DNA of 43,505 nt, taken from assembly GCA_001303185.1 (NCBI GenBank), contig LJNP01000003.1:1-43505 (forward strand), written 5' to 3'. Below, one piece after another: positions 16,843-22,649 of this stretch (positions within the stretch are counted from its first letter, which is position 1; each line of letters begins with the position of its first letter). The notes below the pieces were generated by a model. That model did not search any database. It was not told where the DNA came from and saw only the letters and a list, made by a program, of their open reading frames with translations. Made by a program: the position numbers and the translations under genes. This stretch comes from Parcubacteria bacterium SG8_24 (GTDB lineage: Bacteria; Patescibacteriota; Patescibacteriia; SG8-24).

Positions 16843-16923
16843 GTGCCGGTCTTTTATGTTATGGTATAGACGGTGCGGTCCGGCGTGACCGGAACCCCAT
16901 CGTCCAGATAACCCTATCAGGTC

Positions 16924-17607
16924 ATGAGATTCGACATCATCACCATCTTCCCCCGGATGTTCGACAACTACCTGTCCGAGTCGATAATCAAGCGCGCCCG
17001 CAAGCGCCGGCTCTTGGACATCCGGATGCATGACCTGCGGACATGGACCACCGACCGGCACCGCTCCGTCGACGACCGGCCGTTCGGCGGCGGACCGGGC
17101 ATGGTGATGATGGTCGGCCCCTTCCACCGAGCCCTCAAATCACTGAGGATCCGCGACCGCCGGAAGACGAGGGTCATCTTGCTTTCGGCCAAAGGCAAGA
17201 CCTTCTCCCACCGGGAGGCGGTACGCCTGTCCAAGTACCGCCGGATCGTATTGTTGTGCGGCCGGTACGAGGGGGTGGACGAACGCGTGGCCCGCCATCT
17301 GGCCGACGAGGAGATCTCTATCGGCGAATACGTCCTGACCGGCGGTGAGTTACCGGCTCTGGTGGTCCTCGATGCCGTGGCCCGACAGGTGCCGGGAGTG
17401 ATCGGCAAGGCGGTCTCGCTTCAGGAGGAATCCCACGCGACAGAAGGCGTGACCGAATATCCGCAATATACCCGGCCGGCTGATTATTCGCCGGCCAAAG
17501 GCCAGCACTGGCGCGTGCCCCAGGTCCTGCTCTCCGGGAATCACAGCAAGATCGCCGAATGGCGCGCCCGGAAATCACGACACCTACCCAAAAAGAAGGC
17601 TAAATAA
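16924..17607 (+). CDS. trmD: tRNA (guanine37-N1)-methyltransferase
   Basis: MRFDIITIFP, VDDRPFGGGPGMVM, LCGRYEGVDERV, SIGEYVLTGGE, EYPQYTRP, VPQVLLSGNH. Confidence 0.98.
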   Translation: MRFDIITIFPRMFDNYLSESIIKRARKRRLLDIRMHDLRTWTTDRHRSVDDRPFGGGPGMVMMVGPFHRALKSLRIRDRRKTRVILLSAKGKTFSHREAVRLSKYRRIVLLCGRYEGVDERVARHLADEEISIGEYVLTGGELPALVVLDAVARQVPGVIGKAVSLQEESHATEGVTEYPQYTRPADYSPAKGQHWRVPQVLLSGNHSKIAEWRARKSRHLPKKKAK

Positions 17608-17623
17608 GGCCGCGACGAGGGCC

Positions 17624-17754
17624 TTGACACCCACACGGTACCTCTATATACTATCCCCTGAGCGTCCGACCTGCTTAAGCGGGCCTCCGGACAGCTCTCT
17701 TATTTTCCGCTGACCTAGGGTCTCTTGACGCTTAAGCGTCTGATGCCCTAAAAT
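17624..17754 (+). promoter_or_regulatory. tandem rRNA promoters P1 and P2
   Basis: TTGACA (17624)-N17-TATACT (17647); TTGACG (17725)-N18-TAAAAT (17749); boxA-like GGACTTTGACAA near 17782. Confidence 0.75.
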
Positions 17755-17867
17755 GCGGGAAGCCCTCGATTCGGGGGCAAAGGACTTTGACAATGCGAAC
17801 GAGACAACGAGTCACTGTCTGTTCCCAATAGTTGAGTACCCGGCGACGCGGAAGCGTCACGGGAACT

Positions 17868-19374
<1,507 letters not shown>

Positions 19375-20098: not shown

Positions 20099-20806
20099 TC
20101 AGGTCGCGGCCGGCTCCCGTCGCACGAAGGGGTACCGCACCATCAGAATATGCTCCACCGCAGTGACGCTGGGGCCGATGATCTGACCCTCGAAGTCGCC
20201 GACCGCCGCCGCCGACAGCCTCCGCCCGTCGTCACTGGGGACGATTACCGGGACCTGCACGACGGTCGGACCGTCGTAACGACGGATGAACGAGGTACCC
20301 AGCGCCGCCAGACCGTCCGGTACCGAATCGGCGTATTGCGTGGCGAACGACAGCAGGTGTGTGATGCGGGCCGGTTTCAGCCCCCTCGATTCCATGAACC
20401 GCGAGAACTGCGGCCAATCCAGATCCACCTTGATGCGGAAAAGCTGCATCCGCAGATAACGCGGTGAGTCGTCCTGCAGACGGCCGAACAGCTCCCGGAA
20501 ATCCGGCGCCACCTCGATGATACCCGCGGCCTGCGCCAGACCTTCCCAATCCGGATGACTGACCTTTTCCACCACGTAATGCCTCGGGCGTTCGAAGATT
20601 CCCTCCCAGGGCACGTCCGGACAGCCGACATCCCGCTCCGACGGGACGAACTGCTCCAGGCAGGAGGTGAGCCTCCCGTTGGCGATCGCCTGGACGACAT
20701 GAAAGTTCTCCAGGAGCCGCTTCAACTGTTCCTCCGTGGCGATACCGACCAGCTGATTGAATCTGGCATCCAGCCGGTCGATGAGCGACCAGTCCACATT
20801 ACTCAT
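20099..20806 (-). CDS. hypothetical protein (resembles a recurrent CPR family)
   Basis: GGAGGT SD before MSNVDW; motif GLKPARITHLLSFATQY...LAALGT...VPVI...GRRL; TTGACA-N17-TATTGT promoter; terminator at about 20073-20099. Confidence 0.7.
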   Translation of the reverse strand: MSNVDWSLIDRLDARFNQLVGIATEEQLKRLLENFHVVQAIANGRLTSCLEQFVPSERDVGCPDVPWEGIFERPRHYVVEKVSHPDWEGLAQAAGIIEVAPDFRELFGRLQDDSPRYLRMQLFRIKVDLDWPQFSRFMESRGLKPARITHLLSFATQYADSVPDGLAALGTSFIRRYDGPTVVQVPVIVPSDDGRRLSAAAVGDFEGQIIGPSVTAVEHILMVRYPFVRREPAAT

Positions 20807-21014
20807 GCTTGACCTCCGCTGAAAGGACCGAATCAGTCTCCATTTACTCAATGAACGTCCGGACACAATAACATCTGCTTTGAAGCCTGTCAACTCGCGA
20901 TATTTACCTTGATTTAGCCAAAAACATGATATATCCTACCCCGGTACCAAGGGTTGTCAAAATCCCTAAGCGGTGCTATATTCTTCATTGTCCGTCTGCC
21001 GGACCCGGAAGCTC

Positions 21015-21091
21015 GGGCGTGTAGCTCAGTCGGTTAGAGCGTCACACTGATAATGTGAAGGTCGGTGGTTCGAATCCACCCACGCCCACCA
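21015..21091 (+). tRNA. tRNA-Ile(GAT)
   Basis: Acceptor GGGCGTG/CACGCCC, anticodon arm TCACA-CTGATAA-TGTGA, T-loop TTCGAAT, encoded CCA; promoter TTGTCA (20954)-N17-TATATT. Confidence 0.97.
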
Positions 21092-21138
21092 CCAAGAAAT
21101 CGAACGGCCGGTCCCGTAACCGGCCGGCTGACCGATTT

Positions 21139-21630
21139 ATGATCCTGACCACTACAGACATCGTCATCCGCCTGGTGATCATCACCGTTTTGGCTGCGCT
21201 CATCGGTATGGAGCGGGAATATCACCGACGGCCCGCCGGTATCCGTACTAACGTCATGGTCGGCCTGGGCGCTACGCTCATGACTATGGCCTCCATCCAG
21301 ACGCCATCACTATGGGCTGACGTGACGACCGTCGACCCGGGTCGGATCGCGGCCCAGATCGTCAGCGGCATCGGTTTCATCGGTGCCGGCATCATCCTCC
21401 AACGAGGCAGCAAAAGGGTGATCGGTCTGACTACCGCAGCCACGCTATGGGTAGTGGCCGGACTCGGTATAGCCGTCGGTATGGGACTATACACCGAAGC
21501 GGTGGCCGCCACCATCCTGGTATTCATCACCTTCATCCTGCTGACCCGCGTGGTGGTGGCCGTCAGGTCCTATGCCAAGAGGAATCCGCCGAAATTCGAC
21601 AGCGACTTCGCGGACCTCATCGAAGAGTGA
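21139..21630 (+). CDS. mgtC: MgtC/SapB family membrane protein
   Basis: IGMERE..RPAGIRT, DPGRIAAQIVSGIGFIGAGII, GLTTAATLW. Confidence 0.92.
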   Translation: MILTTTDIVIRLVIITVLAALIGMEREYHRRPAGIRTNVMVGLGATLMTMASIQTPSLWADVTTVDPGRIAAQIVSGIGFIGAGIILQRGSKRVIGLTTAATLWVVAGLGIAVGMGLYTEAVAATILVFITFILLTRVVVAVRSYAKRNPPKFDSDFADLIEE

Positions 21631-21718
21631 AGCCGTTTCAGTATTGACGGCCCGAGGTAGCTCAGTGGTAGAGCAGTGGACAGCACCCTGAGGGGTGCGG
21701 TCGTATCATATCCGCTCT

Positions 21719-21834
21719 AAACATTTCCCGGATCGTGGTCGTGCCGAGGTAGCTCAGTGGTAGAGCAGTGGACTGAAAATCCACGTGTCGCCAGTTCAAT
21801 CCTGGCCCTCGGCACCACGATCCGGTAAATGTTT
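21719..21834. repeat. 21-bp inverted repeat bracketing tRNA-Phe
   Basis: AAACATTTCCCGGATCGTGGT (21719-21739) versus ACCACGATCCGGTAAATGTTT (21814-21834), 20/21 complementary; TCCGCT direct repeat at 21711 and 21835. Confidence 0.9.
21743..21817 (+). tRNA. tRNA-Phe(GAA)
   Basis: GCCGAGG/CCTCGGC acceptor, GTGGA-CTGAAAA-TCCAC anticodon arm, GCCAG-TTCAATC-CTGGC T-arm, ACCA. Confidence 0.97.
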
Positions 21835-21921
21835 TCCGCTGGGGCCGCGTGTCTTCAGTCCAATCCTGGCCCTCACCGCCATTCCTGAAGCGGTTTTACT
21901 TCCGACATAACATGACAATTT

Positions 21922-21997
21922 CGGGGTGTGGCCCAGCGGCTAGGGCGCCTGCTTTGGGAGCAGGAGATCGCGAGTTCGAGTCTCGCCGCCCCGACCA
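21922..21997 (+). tRNA. tRNA-Pro(TGG)
   Basis: CGGGGTG/CGCCCCG acceptor, CCTGC-TTTGGGA-GCAGG, T-arm GCGAG-TTCGAGT-CTCGC, ACCA. Confidence 0.95.
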
Positions 21998-22008
21998 ACA
22001 AAAAATGC

Positions 22009-22082
22009 GCGGGCGTAGTTCAATGGTAGAACACTAGCCTTCCAAGCTAGCCACGTGGGTTCGATTCCCATCGCCCGCTCCA
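22009..22082 (+). tRNA. tRNA-Gly(TCC)
   Basis: GCGGGCG/CGCCCGC acceptor, CTAGC-CTTCCAA-GCTAG, U discriminator plus CCA. Confidence 0.97.
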
Positions 22083-22139
22083 GCTCGAGGGACGCGTACG
22101 GAGTAGGTGTCCCGCGAGGTGGAATAACCCTGCCTTGAT

Positions 22140-22571
22140 ATGAATGATGATAGGCGACCGCAAGTAGGTGTGGCCGCCCTGATCGTCAGGGACGGCAAGA
22201 TACTTCTCGGCAAGCGACGCGGTTCCCACGGTGCCGGTAGTTGGTGCCTGCCTGGAGGCCACCTGGAGTGGAAGGAGGAACCTGCGGCCTGCGTGCAGCG
22301 CGAAGTCAAGGAAGAGACCGGTCTCGACGTGATCTCCAGCCGGCCGTTCGCCTTCACCAATGACGTCTTCGCGGCGGAAGAGAAACATTACGTGACCCTT
22401 TTCCTGCTTACCGAGGTCGCGCCAGGCGACGCCGAGCTGCTGGAGCCGGAAAAATGCGAATCTTGGGGCTGGTTTCCGGTCGACGACCTGCCTTCACCGC
22501 TTTTCCTGCCGATCCGTAACCTGATTGCCTCAGGTTTCGATCTCAGGTCATTCATCTTGGATCTCGCGTGA
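22140..22571 (+). CDS. NUDIX hydrolase (MTH2/NUDT15-like)
   Basis: RPQVGVAALI, LLGKRRGSHGAGSWCLPGGHLE...REVKEETGL (Nudix box), EPEKCESWGWF. Confidence 0.93.
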   Translation: MNDDRRPQVGVAALIVRDGKILLGKRRGSHGAGSWCLPGGHLEWKEEPAACVQREVKEETGLDVISSRPFAFTNDVFAAEEKHYVTLFLLTEVAPGDAELLEPEKCESWGWFPVDDLPSPLFLPIRNLIASGFDLRSFILDLA

Positions 22572-22649
22572 ACCGTATCGTGGCCGTAGATCCAGCCGGA
22601 CTTTGACATCGTTATCACGGACGTATCCGATCATCTTGAGGAGGTTAGA

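What the first reader, a model, noticed from the sequence alone, without database searches (positions are those of the whole stretch)
21651..21881. Nested tRNA: an intact tRNA-Phe inside the anticodon-loop insertion of a second tRNA-Phe
Seen, in order: (a) an exact 30-nt copy of the tRNA-Phe 5' half, ending at the first base of the anticodon loop (21652-21681); (b) hairpin GCACCC-TGAG-GGGTGC, then GGTCGTATCATATCCGCTCT; (c) the left arm of a 21-bp inverted repeat; (d) the complete tRNA-Phe(GAA) with CCA; (e) the right arm, which overlaps the ACCA and extends the acceptor stem; (f) TCCGCTGGGG; (g) a 26/30 copy of the 3' half ending in GCCA. TCCGCT is directly repeated on both sides of the inverted-repeat cassette, like a target duplication. 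The outer copy lacks an anticodon and has acceptor and T-stem mismatches. Established: integrative elements leave one partial tRNA copy, not both halves around a whole gene, and no integrase is in the window. Inference: an ancestral tRNA-Phe with a short structured anticodon-loop insertion (intron-like) acquired an uninterrupted copy of itself within that insertion, and the outer gene is now decaying. Alternatively the outer halves refold with the inner tRNA as a processing switch, or yield a tRNA-like carrier RNA. This hints at an undescribed small tRNA-intron or tRNA-copying mechanism.
Basis: partly seen in the sequence, partly recalled or inferred. Interest (0 to 1): 0.9.

Follow-up and report, generated by a model that had tools for sequence, protein, structure and literature searches.

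The report
tRNA gene nested inside tRNA gene
A complete phenylalanine tRNA gene sits inside the broken anticodon loop of an older copy of itself in a tiny-genome bacterium, and similar nested tRNA genes are common in its relatives, which points to an undescribed way in which tRNA genes get replaced.

Summary
At window 21651-21881 a full tRNA-Phe(GAA), flanked by a 21-bp inverted repeat, lies between a 5' half and a 3' half of a second tRNA-Phe. The same architecture occurs in 3 of 24 species genomes of the family and on two further metagenome contigs, so it is inherited and not an assembly artefact.

The inner gene is the only tRNA-Phe in the genome. The outer 3' half carries uncompensated, disruptive changes in two of three lineages. 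The hairpin and the stems around the inner gene keep their pairing, partly through two-sided changes.

Best reading (0.6): a stem-flanked tRNA-Phe cassette was inserted into the anticodon loop of the resident gene, and the outer halves are relics. How the cassette got there is not shown.

Relatives carry a group I intron at almost the same site, but the insert shows no intron homology.

Unexpectedly, the same layout recurs for many other tRNAs. A crude T-loop scan hit 45 of 151 genomes of the class and 16 of 121 of the phylum sample, with 0 hits for the reversed control. Five literature searches found no description.

The parts
21630..21641 (+). Outer leader arm. Pairs with 21885-21896 to close the whole nest in a stem.
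   Evidence: Read. Duplex of the 30 nt before and after the outer copy: -25.6 kcal/mol, z -5.1 against shuffles. The whole-region fold pairs these ends. G020 and G022 have a different sequence here but the same complementarity (z -6.0 and -5.3).
21651..21681 (+). Outer tRNA-Phe 5' half: acceptor 5' strand, D arm, anticodon-stem 5' strand and first loop base.
   Evidence: 21652-21681 is 30/30 identical to inner 21744-21773. The outer 5' half is 31/31 identical to the inner gene in G020 and G022.
21683..21698 (+). 6-bp hairpin in the left spacer.
   Evidence: In G020 and G022 the fifth pair is G-C instead of C-G, a change on both sides, while the loop differs at 3 of 4 bases.
21711..21716 (+). 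Left copy of TCCGCT.
   Evidence: The left copy is unchanged in G020 and G022.
21719..21739 (+). Left arm of the 21-bp inverted repeat, the leader of the inner gene.
   Evidence: 95% complementary. Of 21 pairs, 16 never vary, 2 change on both sides and 3 have unpaired cells across the three genomes.
21743..21817 (+). Inner tRNA-Phe(GAA) with encoded CCA. It is the only tRNA-Phe gene in the genome.
   Evidence: ARAGORN. Rfam tRNA 73 bits. One tRNA-Phe among 46 tRNAs in the 67 contigs. 75/75 identical to the un-nested tRNA-Phe of G003.
21814..21834 (+). Right arm of the inverted repeat. It overlaps the ACCA of the inner tRNA and forms its trailer.
21838..21843 (+). Right copy of TCCGCT.
   Evidence: It reads TTCGCT in G020 and G022.
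21845..21881 (+). Outer tRNA-Phe 3' half: most of the anticodon-stem 3' strand, variable loop, T arm, acceptor 3' strand and GCCA. It is degenerate.
   Evidence: 30/37 identical to the inner copy. The changes break 3 acceptor pairs and 1 T-stem pair and alter the second base of the T loop. The G020 outer 3' half is identical to its inner copy over the 34-nt BLAST match (tRNA 42-75). In G022 the BLAST match is 30/31 (tRNA 42-72), and reading the alignment gives 3 differences in all.
21885..21896 (+). Outer trailer arm. Pairs with 21630-21641.

Best explanation
The locus is an inherited gene-in-gene arrangement. The resident tRNA-Phe gene lay in the conserved array tRNA-Ile ... tRNA-Phe, tRNA-Pro, tRNA-Gly. 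It was interrupted in its anticodon loop by about 163 bp (21682-21844). This insert carries a complete tRNA-Phe gene with its own leader-trailer stem and a small hairpin.

The inner gene took over decoding. It is presumably cut out of a long, nested-stem precursor by the usual tRNA end-processing enzymes (inferred).

The outer halves are relics. The 5' relic stays identical to the inner 5' half, most simply through gene conversion between direct repeats 92 bp apart (inferred). The 3' relic has drifted away and is decaying.

The outer leader-trailer stem, the hairpin and the inner stem stay under selection because they are now the processing context of the only tRNA-Phe. They may also keep the inner cloverleaf from mispairing with the spare outer 5' half (inferred).

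How the cassette was inserted is not shown. Candidates are break repair or capture of a foreign cassette, or a small site-specific or transposon-like insertion. The event is one instance of a process that has repeatedly nested tRNA genes into their cognates in this bacterial phylum.
For: Reality and inheritance:
- The same architecture, at 88% identity over about 230 nt, is in G020 and G022, which belong to another genus. That makes 3 of 24 family genomes.
- It also occurs on metagenome contigs L028 and L029.
- Contigs of run X1 (which may be the source sample) bridge all junctions without differences. A contig of run X2, from another sample, bridges the inner 3' end, the right spacer, the outer 3' half and tRNA-Pro.

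The inner gene works:
- It is the only tRNA-Phe of 46 tRNAs.
- It scores 73 bits and has all cloverleaf pairs in all three genomes, including an A-U to U-A swap in the anticodon stem.

The outer gene was the resident gene:
- Its leader and trailer in G020 and G022 are homologous to those of the un-nested genes of G003 and G011.
- The order Phe-Pro-Gly is kept.

The outer 3' half is decaying:
- There are 7 differences in G000, 3 in G022 and 0 in G020. They disrupt pairing and are not compensated.

The stems are selected:
- The hairpin has 1 pair changed on both sides and the inner stem has 2. The outer flanks are complementary in all three genomes despite different sequences (z -5.1, -6.0, -5.3).
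- Leader-trailer stems also flank un-nested tRNA-Phe genes in 5 of 14 relatives. In G000 no other tRNA has one (45 others, z > -1.7).

The process recurs:
Against: - The outer 5' half shows no decay at all in three lineages, and it follows the inner gene at the one position where lineages differ (T against A at stem position 2). Gene conversion explains this but is not demonstrated. Selection on the outer 5' half would explain it too.
- The outer anticodon stem keeps pairing in G000 through a two-sided change, A-U to U-G. Alone this is weak evidence: 7 of 37 positions changed.
- The non-tRNA parts of the insert are about 78-81% identical between genera while the outer leader and trailer are barely alignable. 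This fits selection, but it would also fit later horizontal spread of the insert.
- In G020 the outer halves are fully intact, so a function of the outer shell there cannot be excluded.
- No RNA data and no insertion enzyme were found. There is no integrase in the window and no reverse transcriptase in the genome.
- Only three genomes, effectively two lineages, carry the Phe nest, so all covariation counts are small.
Confidence: 0.6

Rival explanations
1. The nest is a working RNA design. The outer halves fold into a tRNA-like shell around the inner pre-tRNA. This shell is needed for processing or stability. Alternatively, the inner tRNA acts as an 'intron': it is removed by RNase P and 3' processing, and the outer tRNA is then re-joined, for example by RtcB, or works as a two-piece molecule.
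For: - The outer halves are intact in G020.
- The outer 5' half is invariant in all three genomes, and the outer anticodon-stem pair is kept by a two-sided change.
- The outer leader-trailer stem is maintained.
- G000 keeps an adjacent Archease and RtcB RNA-ligase pair in a 1.1-Mb genome.
- Elsewhere in the class some outer genes would be perfect tRNAs if the insert were removed.
Against: - The Phe outer copy has no anticodon or anticodon loop left in any of the three genomes.
- Its 3' half carries uncompensated disruptive changes in G000 and G022.
- G000 has a full tRNA set without any outer gene.
- No splicing-endonuclease domain was found (PF01974, 0 matches at E <= 0.1).
- RNase P and RNase Z cuts would leave the spacers attached.
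- RtcB is common in bacteria as a repair enzyme: it matched in 10 of 14 control genomes.
- In other nests the outer halves collect extra hairpin inserts, as dead DNA would.
Confidence: 0.2
2. The insert is what remains of a group I intron. The ancestral tRNA-Phe carried the anticodon-loop intron still seen in relatives, and an intron-less copy of the gene landed in or replaced that intron.
For: - G014 and G008 carry Rfam group I introns (68.2 and 74.6 bits; gathering score 50) in tRNA-Phe at the same locus. They sit one base from where the outer 5' half ends.
- The hexamer TCCGCT also occurs in the 3' strand of helix P1 of both introns.
- Homing-type breaks at this site would give a reason for the location.
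Against: - There is no Intron_gpI match in window 20500-22600 at E <= 1, and none in G000, G020 or G022 at E <= 0.001.
- Local alignments of both spacers to both introns score no better than shuffles: 292, 132, 284 and 273 of 300 shuffles reach the observed score.
- Similar nests occur in many tRNAs. Whether those carry introns was not examined.
Confidence: 0.08
3. The inverted-repeat cassette is a small mobile element: a tRNA-carrying miniature transposon or mini integrative element. It inserted at TCCGCT and duplicated that site.
For: - The terminal inverted repeats match at 20/21, and TCCGCT flanks them directly, 6/6 in G000.
- One other nest, L091, has a 4-base repeat (TTAA) at both junctions.
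- In other lineages the arms around inner tRNAs have the same end motifs (CCYGCCYGCC and GGCRGGCRGG) as a dispersed palindromic repeat with 25 places in G084.
Against: - The cassette is single-copy in G000.
- The viral contig scan found nothing.
- The duplicated site is 5/6 in G020 and G022 and absent in other nests (L089, L072).
- The right arm overlaps the tRNA's own ACCA, as a processing stem would.
- Similar stems flank un-nested tRNA-Phe genes.
- No transposase or integrase lies in the window (for integrase only).
- Random transposition would not explain why the host gene is always the cognate tRNA.
Confidence: 0.1
4. Assembly artefact or chimera.
For: Short repeats of tRNA sequence are a classic cause of misjoins in metagenome assemblies. 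The read evidence available here is contigs, not raw reads.
Against: - The same architecture, with its own substitutions, is present in two other species genomes and two further metagenome contigs.
- The two copies differ, so they are not collapsed repeats.
- Contigs of two samples agree.
Confidence: 0.02

Closest known systems
Bacterial tRNA genes with a group I intron in the anticodon loop (tRNA-Leu, fMet, Arg and Ile types are recalled from the literature; tRNA-Phe and apparently tRNA-Asn cases were seen here in relatives)
   Same: An insert in the anticodon loop of a bacterial tRNA gene. Relatives G014 and G008 carry such an intron in this very gene, one base from the nest's left junction.
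   Different: No ribozyme core is present. The insert holds a complete tRNA. The host gene has lost its anticodon and is decaying.
Archaeal and algal disrupted tRNA genes: protein-spliced introns, split tRNAs and permuted tRNAs (recalled; reviews seen only in the search listings)
   Same: The tRNA body is interrupted at or near the anticodon loop. Complementary flanking sequences bring the halves together. An RtcB-type ligase is present in the genome.
   Different: This is a bacterium. No splicing-endonuclease domain was found. No bulge-helix-bulge motif was recognised by eye. The interrupting sequence is itself a tRNA of the same identity.
Partial tRNA copies left by integrative elements, for example the tRNA-Thr fragment next to a recombinase-bearing element in Caldiarchaeum (PMC3293823, abstract read). 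Sublocation preference of integrases for the anticodon loop is recalled.
   Same: Duplicated pieces of a tRNA gene lie next to an intact copy, and the anticodon loop is the junction.
   Different: Both halves flank the whole gene within 230 bp. There is no element body and no integrase in the window.
Twintrons and other nested insertions (recalled)
   Same: A self-contained structured RNA gene sits inside another of the same kind.
   Different: A twintron is removed by sequential splicing. Here nothing shows that the outer unit is restored.
Repeats carrying the 3' end of a tRNA downstream of the gene, as in the E. coli tyrT/RtT region (recalled; weak Rfam RtT hit of 23.5 bits on another G000 locus)
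   Same: Partial tRNA 3' ends are repeated just downstream of tRNA genes. G000 has such repeats at other tRNAs.
   Different: Those repeats are one-sided and carry only about 20 nt of the 3' end. The Phe locus has both halves around the gene.

Membership tests
Canonical bacterial tRNA (inner gene) | Cloverleaf with anticodon loop; scores above the tRNA model threshold | tested here: met
   ARAGORN calls tRNA-Phe(GAA). Rfam RF00005 gives 73 bits against a gathering score of 29. All 21 cloverleaf pairs are standard in three genomes.
Canonical bacterial tRNA (outer copy) | Anticodon loop present; acceptor and T stems paired | tested here: not met
   No anticodon is present in any of the three genomes. 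In G000, 3 of 7 acceptor pairs and 1 of 5 T-stem pairs are broken. ARAGORN with introns allowed only pairs the outer 5' half with the inner 3' half.
Group I intron in a tRNA | Catalytic core recognised by the Rfam Intron_gpI model | tested here: not met
   No match at E <= 1 in window 20500-22600. No match in G000, G020 or G022 at E <= 0.001. Relatives G014 and G008 do match.
Group I intron in a tRNA | Sequence homology of the insert to the introns of relatives | tested here: not met
   Local alignments score no better than shuffles.
Protein-spliced (archaeal-type) tRNA intron or split tRNA | Splicing endonuclease encoded in the genome | tested here: not met
   PF01974 gives 0 matches at E <= 0.1 in G000 (98.9% complete). 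The same search matched 4 archaeal control genomes.
Protein-spliced (archaeal-type) tRNA intron or split tRNA | Bulge-helix-bulge motif at both junctions | tested here: inconclusive
   Inspected by eye only. No 3-4-3 motif was seen, and no dedicated search tool was available.
Protein-spliced (archaeal-type) tRNA intron or split tRNA | RNA ligase of the RtcB type | tested here: met
   RtcB 587 bits at C17:16907-18202, with Archease at C17:16359-16757. This is not specific: RtcB matched in 10 of 14 control genomes.
Scar of an integrative element at a tRNA gene | Integrase nearby, and one partial copy at the far end of an element | tested here: not met
   The only Phage_integrase match is on C33. 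Both halves lie within 230 bp of each other.
Miniature inverted-repeat transposable element | Terminal inverted repeats with a target-site duplication | tested here: inconclusive
   The inverted repeat matches 20/21. TCCGCT is 6/6 in G000 but 5/6 in G020 and G022.
Miniature inverted-repeat transposable element | Several copies per genome | tested here: not met
   One copy in G000. No viral contig match.
Nested tRNA layout seen here (5' part, stem, whole cognate tRNA, stem, 3' part) | A whole tRNA flanked by complementary arms, between copies of its own 5' and 3' parts, with junctions in the anticodon loop | tested here: met
   Window. Comparison set. The Phe nest lacks the CCYGCC...GGCRGG arm ends that are common in the other lineages.

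The most novel reading that the evidence does not exclude
Nested tRNAs are a genetic system of this bacterial phylum. Stem-bounded tRNA cassettes home into the anticodon loop of the cognate resident tRNA gene and replace it gene for gene. In fresh nests the enclosed tRNA behaves as a new kind of bacterial tRNA intron: it is cut out by RNase P and 3' processing, and the outer tRNA is recovered by further trimming and RtcB-archease ligation.
Probability: 0.12. Interest if true: 0.95.

Novelty: new variant of a known kind. Interest (0 to 1): 0.7.

Why it matters
tRNA genes are among the most conserved genes, and in these 1-Mb genomes they are single-copy. How they turn over is therefore hard to see.

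This locus shows a replacement caught in the act. A new copy is embedded in the old one, and it is readable because the old halves still flank it. The same layout recurs for at least 14 amino-acid identities in roughly a third of the class genomes sampled. That points to a regular process, whether a mutational mechanism or a mobile cassette, and not an accident.

In my searches of the open literature it is undescribed.

It also matters in practice:
- tRNA finders report only the inner gene, or a false 'intron'.
- The repeats can break assemblies.

If the outer genes prove to be restored at the RNA level, it would be the first protein-dependent tRNA splicing in bacteria.

Tried and rejected
**Assembly artefact.** Rejected. 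In one search, run X2 showed no contig over 21704-21739, and its contig over the left side ends 22 nt past the 21681/21682 junction. That is fewer than the 31 letters needed to count as bridging. This is a gap in cover, not a finding. RNA run X24 laid only on tRNA bodies with several differences, so they come from other organisms. It says nothing about expression.

**Group I intron remnant.**
- No covariance-model hit.
- Alignments at shuffle level.
- A hairpin of the G008 intron resembles the nest hairpin, but the score does not exceed shuffles.

**Multi-copy mobile element.**
- The cassette and hairpin are unique in G000.
- The viral contig scan was empty.

**Tandem-duplication origin.** The inner leader and trailer are not copies of the outer leader and trailer, so simple tandem duplications with breakpoints in the anticodon loop do not fit.

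**cDNA capture.** No RVT_1 match in G000, so a present-day reverse transcriptase is lacking. This does not exclude a past one.

**Splicing endonuclease.** Not found.

**Promoter or terminator inside the nest.** The consensus scan found none between 21600 and 21900.

**Leader-trailer stems as a general property of tRNAs in G000.** Not so. Only tRNA-Phe stands out.

**Literature.** Five searches found no report of a tRNA gene nested in a tRNA gene, and none of non-group-I tRNA inserts in this phylum.
- The preprint on new group I introns in tRNA genes had no occurrence of Phe, Asn or the phylum names.
- The paper on rRNA insertion sequences in this group has no occurrence of tRNA.
- Supplementary files were not consulted.

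**Other limits.**
- The metagenome and genome-collection scans were each used once, with one junction pattern. Variants with a different hairpin would have been missed.
Full report
**What is there**

Window 21651-21881 reads, in order:
- 21651-21681: a 5' half of tRNA-Phe. Positions 21652-21681 are 30/30 identical to the inner gene.
- 21683-21698: a 6-bp hairpin.
- 21711-21716: TCCGCT.
- 21719-21739: the left arm of a 21-bp inverted repeat.
- 21743-21817: a complete tRNA-Phe(GAA) with CCA.
- 21814-21834: the right arm, which overlaps the ACCA.
- 21838-21843: TCCGCT again.
- 21845-21881: a 3' half, 30/37 identical to the inner gene.

ARAGORN and Rfam see only the inner gene (73 bits).

**Is it real?**

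The window is contig C36 of a 1.12-Mb, 67-contig genome, G000.

The same architecture aligns at 88% identity over about 230 nt in G020 and G022. These are two species of another genus of the same family. That gives 3 of 24 family genomes, all of which were searched. A junction pattern found the same two genomes among the species-representative collection. It also found two further metagenome contigs carrying the G022 form.

The records found are titled as Candidatus Uhrbacteria and Parcubacteria-group genomes.

Contigs of public runs agree with the window without differences.
- In run X1, which may be the source sample, one contig covers 21400-21788 and another covers 21760-21970.
- In run X2, from another sample, one contig covers 21760-22100.

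These are contigs, not raw reads. An artefact is very unlikely.

**Which copy works?**

G000 has 46 tRNA genes with a full set of anticodons and exactly one tRNA-Phe, the inner gene. All 21 cloverleaf pairs of the inner gene are standard in the three genomes, with one A-U to U-A swap in the anticodon stem.

The outer copy has no anticodon loop in any genome.

Its 3' half differs between lineages:
- G020: identical to the inner copy over the 34-nt BLAST match (tRNA positions 42-75).
- G022: three differences. One breaks a T-stem pair, and CCA reads TCG.
- G000: seven differences. They break 3 of 7 acceptor pairs and one T-stem pair and change the second T-loop base.

These changes are disruptive and uncompensated, which is the signature of relaxed constraint.

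The outer 5' half, in contrast, is identical to the inner 5' half in each genome. This holds even at the one stem position where G000 (T) differs from G020 and G022 (A). Gene conversion between the 30-nt direct repeats is the simplest explanation, but it is inferred.

**What is conserved around the inner gene?**
- The hairpin keeps six pairs through a C-G to G-C change on both sides, while three of its four loop bases differ.
- Of the 21 inner-stem pairs, 16 are invariant, 2 change on both sides and 3 have unpaired cells.
- The 30 nt before and after the whole nest are strongly complementary in all three genomes (z -5.1, -6.0, -5.3), although their sequences differ.
- In G020 and G022 these outer flanks are homologous to the flanks of the un-nested tRNA-Phe of G003 and G011.

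So the outer copy is the resident gene of the locus. The order tRNA-Phe, tRNA-Pro, tRNA-Gly is conserved.

Leader-trailer complementarity also flanks un-nested tRNA-Phe genes in 5 of 14 relatives (z <= -3). In G000 it is peculiar to tRNA-Phe: z is -4.4, and all 45 other tRNAs score above -1.7. I therefore read the 21-bp repeat as a processing stem of the inner pre-tRNA, and not as transposon ends. The whole region folds far better than shuffles (z -6.7 and -7.2).

**Introns in relatives**

In G014 and G008 the tRNA-Phe at this locus carries a group I intron (68.2 and 74.6 bits). By my reading it lies after U33, one base from the end of the outer 5' half.

Five further family genomes have group I introns next to a 5' half that by reading belongs to tRNA-Asn(GUU). 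The anticodon loop is thus a frequent site of insertion in this family.

Nevertheless the nest shows no intron core and no alignment above shuffle level.

**The wider pattern**

The first scan looked for a duplicated D arm 60-90 nt apart in 401 genomes of the class. Besides the three Phe nests it found two more loci.
- One, in G240, is a tRNA-Thr(CGU) between halves of another tRNA-Thr. The acceptor and T stems of the outer copy differ from the inner ones yet pair with each other.
- Following this up gave further tRNA-Thr nests in G240, G053 and G058.

A cruder scan looked for two T loops 28-58 nt apart.
- Class sample: 71 places in 45 of 151 genomes.
- Phylum sample: 16 of 121 genomes, all 16 outside the class.
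- Reversed-pattern control: no hit in any genome.

I examined 34 places: 30 loci plus L039 and L056.
- 32 have an ARAGORN tRNA over the first T loop, followed 5-35 nt later by a copy of its own 3' part.
- In 22 of the 32, that copy begins at tRNA position 31-41.
- In 16 of the 32, an upstream copy of the 5' part is at least 20 nt long. In several of the others the upstream part is itself chopped by extra hairpin inserts (read by eye).

The isotypes are Arg, Val, Thr, Pro, Ile, Gly, Asn, Leu, Ser, Met, Trp and Glu, with a Lys example.

The inner tRNA is regularly flanked by complementary arms. In many lineages the arms end in CCYGCCYGCC and GGCRGGCRGG. In G084 these same end motifs bound a dispersed palindromic repeat with 25 places, several of them in ordinary intergenic DNA.

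The two acceptor types of tRNA-Thr(UGU), GCCGCCC and GCCGACG, are outer and inner in G123 and the reverse in G240. This suggests repeated replacement between alleles.

**How it most likely works**

*Shown:*
- the layout and its inheritance;
- the inner gene as the sole tRNA-Phe;
- decay of the outer 3' half;
- maintained stems;
- recurrence of the layout.

*Inferred:*
- A cassette consisting of a tRNA with a leader-trailer stem entered the anticodon loop of the cognate resident gene.
- The transcript is processed from the outside in, and the inner tRNA is released by RNase P and 3' trimming.
- The strong inner stem and the hairpin keep the inner cloverleaf in register against the competing outer 5' half.
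- Gene conversion homogenises the repeats until they diverge too far.

*Not resolved: the insertion mechanism.*
- G000 has a single tyrosine recombinase, on another contig.
- It has no reverse transcriptase.
- It has no splicing endonuclease.
- It does have an Archease-RtcB ligase pair.

A functional outer shell, or true splicing of the inner tRNA as an intron, remains possible. This applies especially where the outer genes are intact. For the Phe nest, however, the lost anticodon and the uncompensated damage argue against it.

**Comparison with known systems**

The nest resembles the following, without qualifying as any of them; the failed tests are listed in the membership table:
- group I intron tRNAs (same site);
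- archaeal split and intron-bearing tRNAs (halves brought together by flanking complementarity);
- scars of integrative elements (partial copies);
- twintrons (nesting).

Five full-text searches found no description of a tRNA gene inside a tRNA gene.

**Limits**
- Only three genomes, effectively two lineages, carry the Phe nest.
- There are no RNA data.
- Read support comes from contigs only.
- The class-wide counts come from one narrow pattern and from partly manual reading, so they are lower bounds on frequency and rough on structure.
- No genomes outside the phylum were scanned.

Noticed in passing
G123:C1:24709-24775 (L089), G172:C3:20026-20087 (L091), G057:C28:2175-2237 (L072), G084:C4:33733-33799 (L085), G240:C30:2143-2263 (L039), G240:C51 (L056), G053:C10 (L049/L066), G058:C3 (L051/L090) and others: Nested tRNA genes (5' part, stem, whole cognate tRNA, stem, 3' part) recur for Thr, Asn, Ile, Arg, Lys, Pro, Val, Met, Leu, Ser, Trp and Glu. 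A double T-loop scan hit 71 places in 45 of 151 class genomes and 16 of 121 genomes of the phylum sample; the reversed control hit 0. Some outer genes would be intact tRNAs if the insert were removed.
   Followed up: partly
G014:C4:5570-5820 (L019), G008:C101:1473-1699 (L022); G014:C2, G007:C59, G018:C1, G004:C43, G002:C43 (L031-L035): Group I introns lie in the anticodon loop of tRNA-Phe(GAA) in two relatives. By reading, they also lie in tRNA-Asn(GUU) in five relatives. G012:C49, G008:C26 and G006:C14 carry group I introns in what reads as 23S rRNA. As far as I recall, the Phe and Asn hosts are not among the classic bacterial tRNA intron types.
   Followed up: partly
G000 contigs C4:6737-6820, C6:10810-10849, C9:24436-24497, C10:4807-4892, C11:12061-12170, C13:43752-43832, C33:8963-8997, C43:10433-10490, C52:586-643, C62:23229-23306: A GC-rich repeat family of about 80-110 nt lies downstream of tRNA genes. 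At seven tRNAs (Asn, Asp, Ala-GGC, Ser-GCT, Met, Leu-TAG, Lys-CTT) a copy of at least 18 nt of that tRNA's own 3' end lies about 125-220 nt downstream of the gene, and in the cases read it follows the repeat. At two of them the terminator hairpin is duplicated as well. There is no Rfam family for it, only a weak RtT-like hit of 23.5 bits.
   Followed up: partly
G084, 25 places, e.g. C1:10021-10053, C2:13101-13142, C4:33575-33621: A dispersed palindromic repeat with ends CCYGCCYGCC and GGCRGGCRGG, in three size classes, lies in ordinary intergenic DNA and inside outer tRNA halves. The same end motifs flank inner tRNAs in several other lineages. The pattern had 0 hits in G000, G125, G060 and G047.
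   Followed up: partly
G113:C12:109600-109900 (L043 1392-1675); G014:C2:11705-11830 (L031): One-sided versions of the nest. In G113, two to three tandem units of a tRNA-Thr 5' half plus a two-hairpin spacer lie upstream of a whole tRNA-Thr(UGU). In G014, a 5' half copy split in its D loop lies upstream of the intron-bearing tRNA-Asn.
   Followed up: no
G000:C17:16359-16757 and 16907-18202: Adjacent Archease and RtcB RNA-ligase genes are kept in a 1.1-Mb genome. No splicing endonuclease domain was found.
   Followed up: no
G000:C67:22140-22233 (minus strand): ARAGORN reports a 94-nt tRNA-like gene with a four-base anticodon (ggag) and no assigned amino acid.
   Followed up: no
G000:C20:15512-15587; whole genome: A tRNA-Ile(UAU) is present and only two CAU tRNAs were found, so AUA is probably read by the UAU tRNA and not by a lysidine-modified CAU tRNA.
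   Followed up: no
window 21015-21091 and 21055-21630: The longest reading frame of the membrane-protein gene upstream of the nest starts inside tRNA-Ile, so its real start is probably further downstream. This gene is missing between tRNA-Ile and the nest in G022.
   Followed up: no
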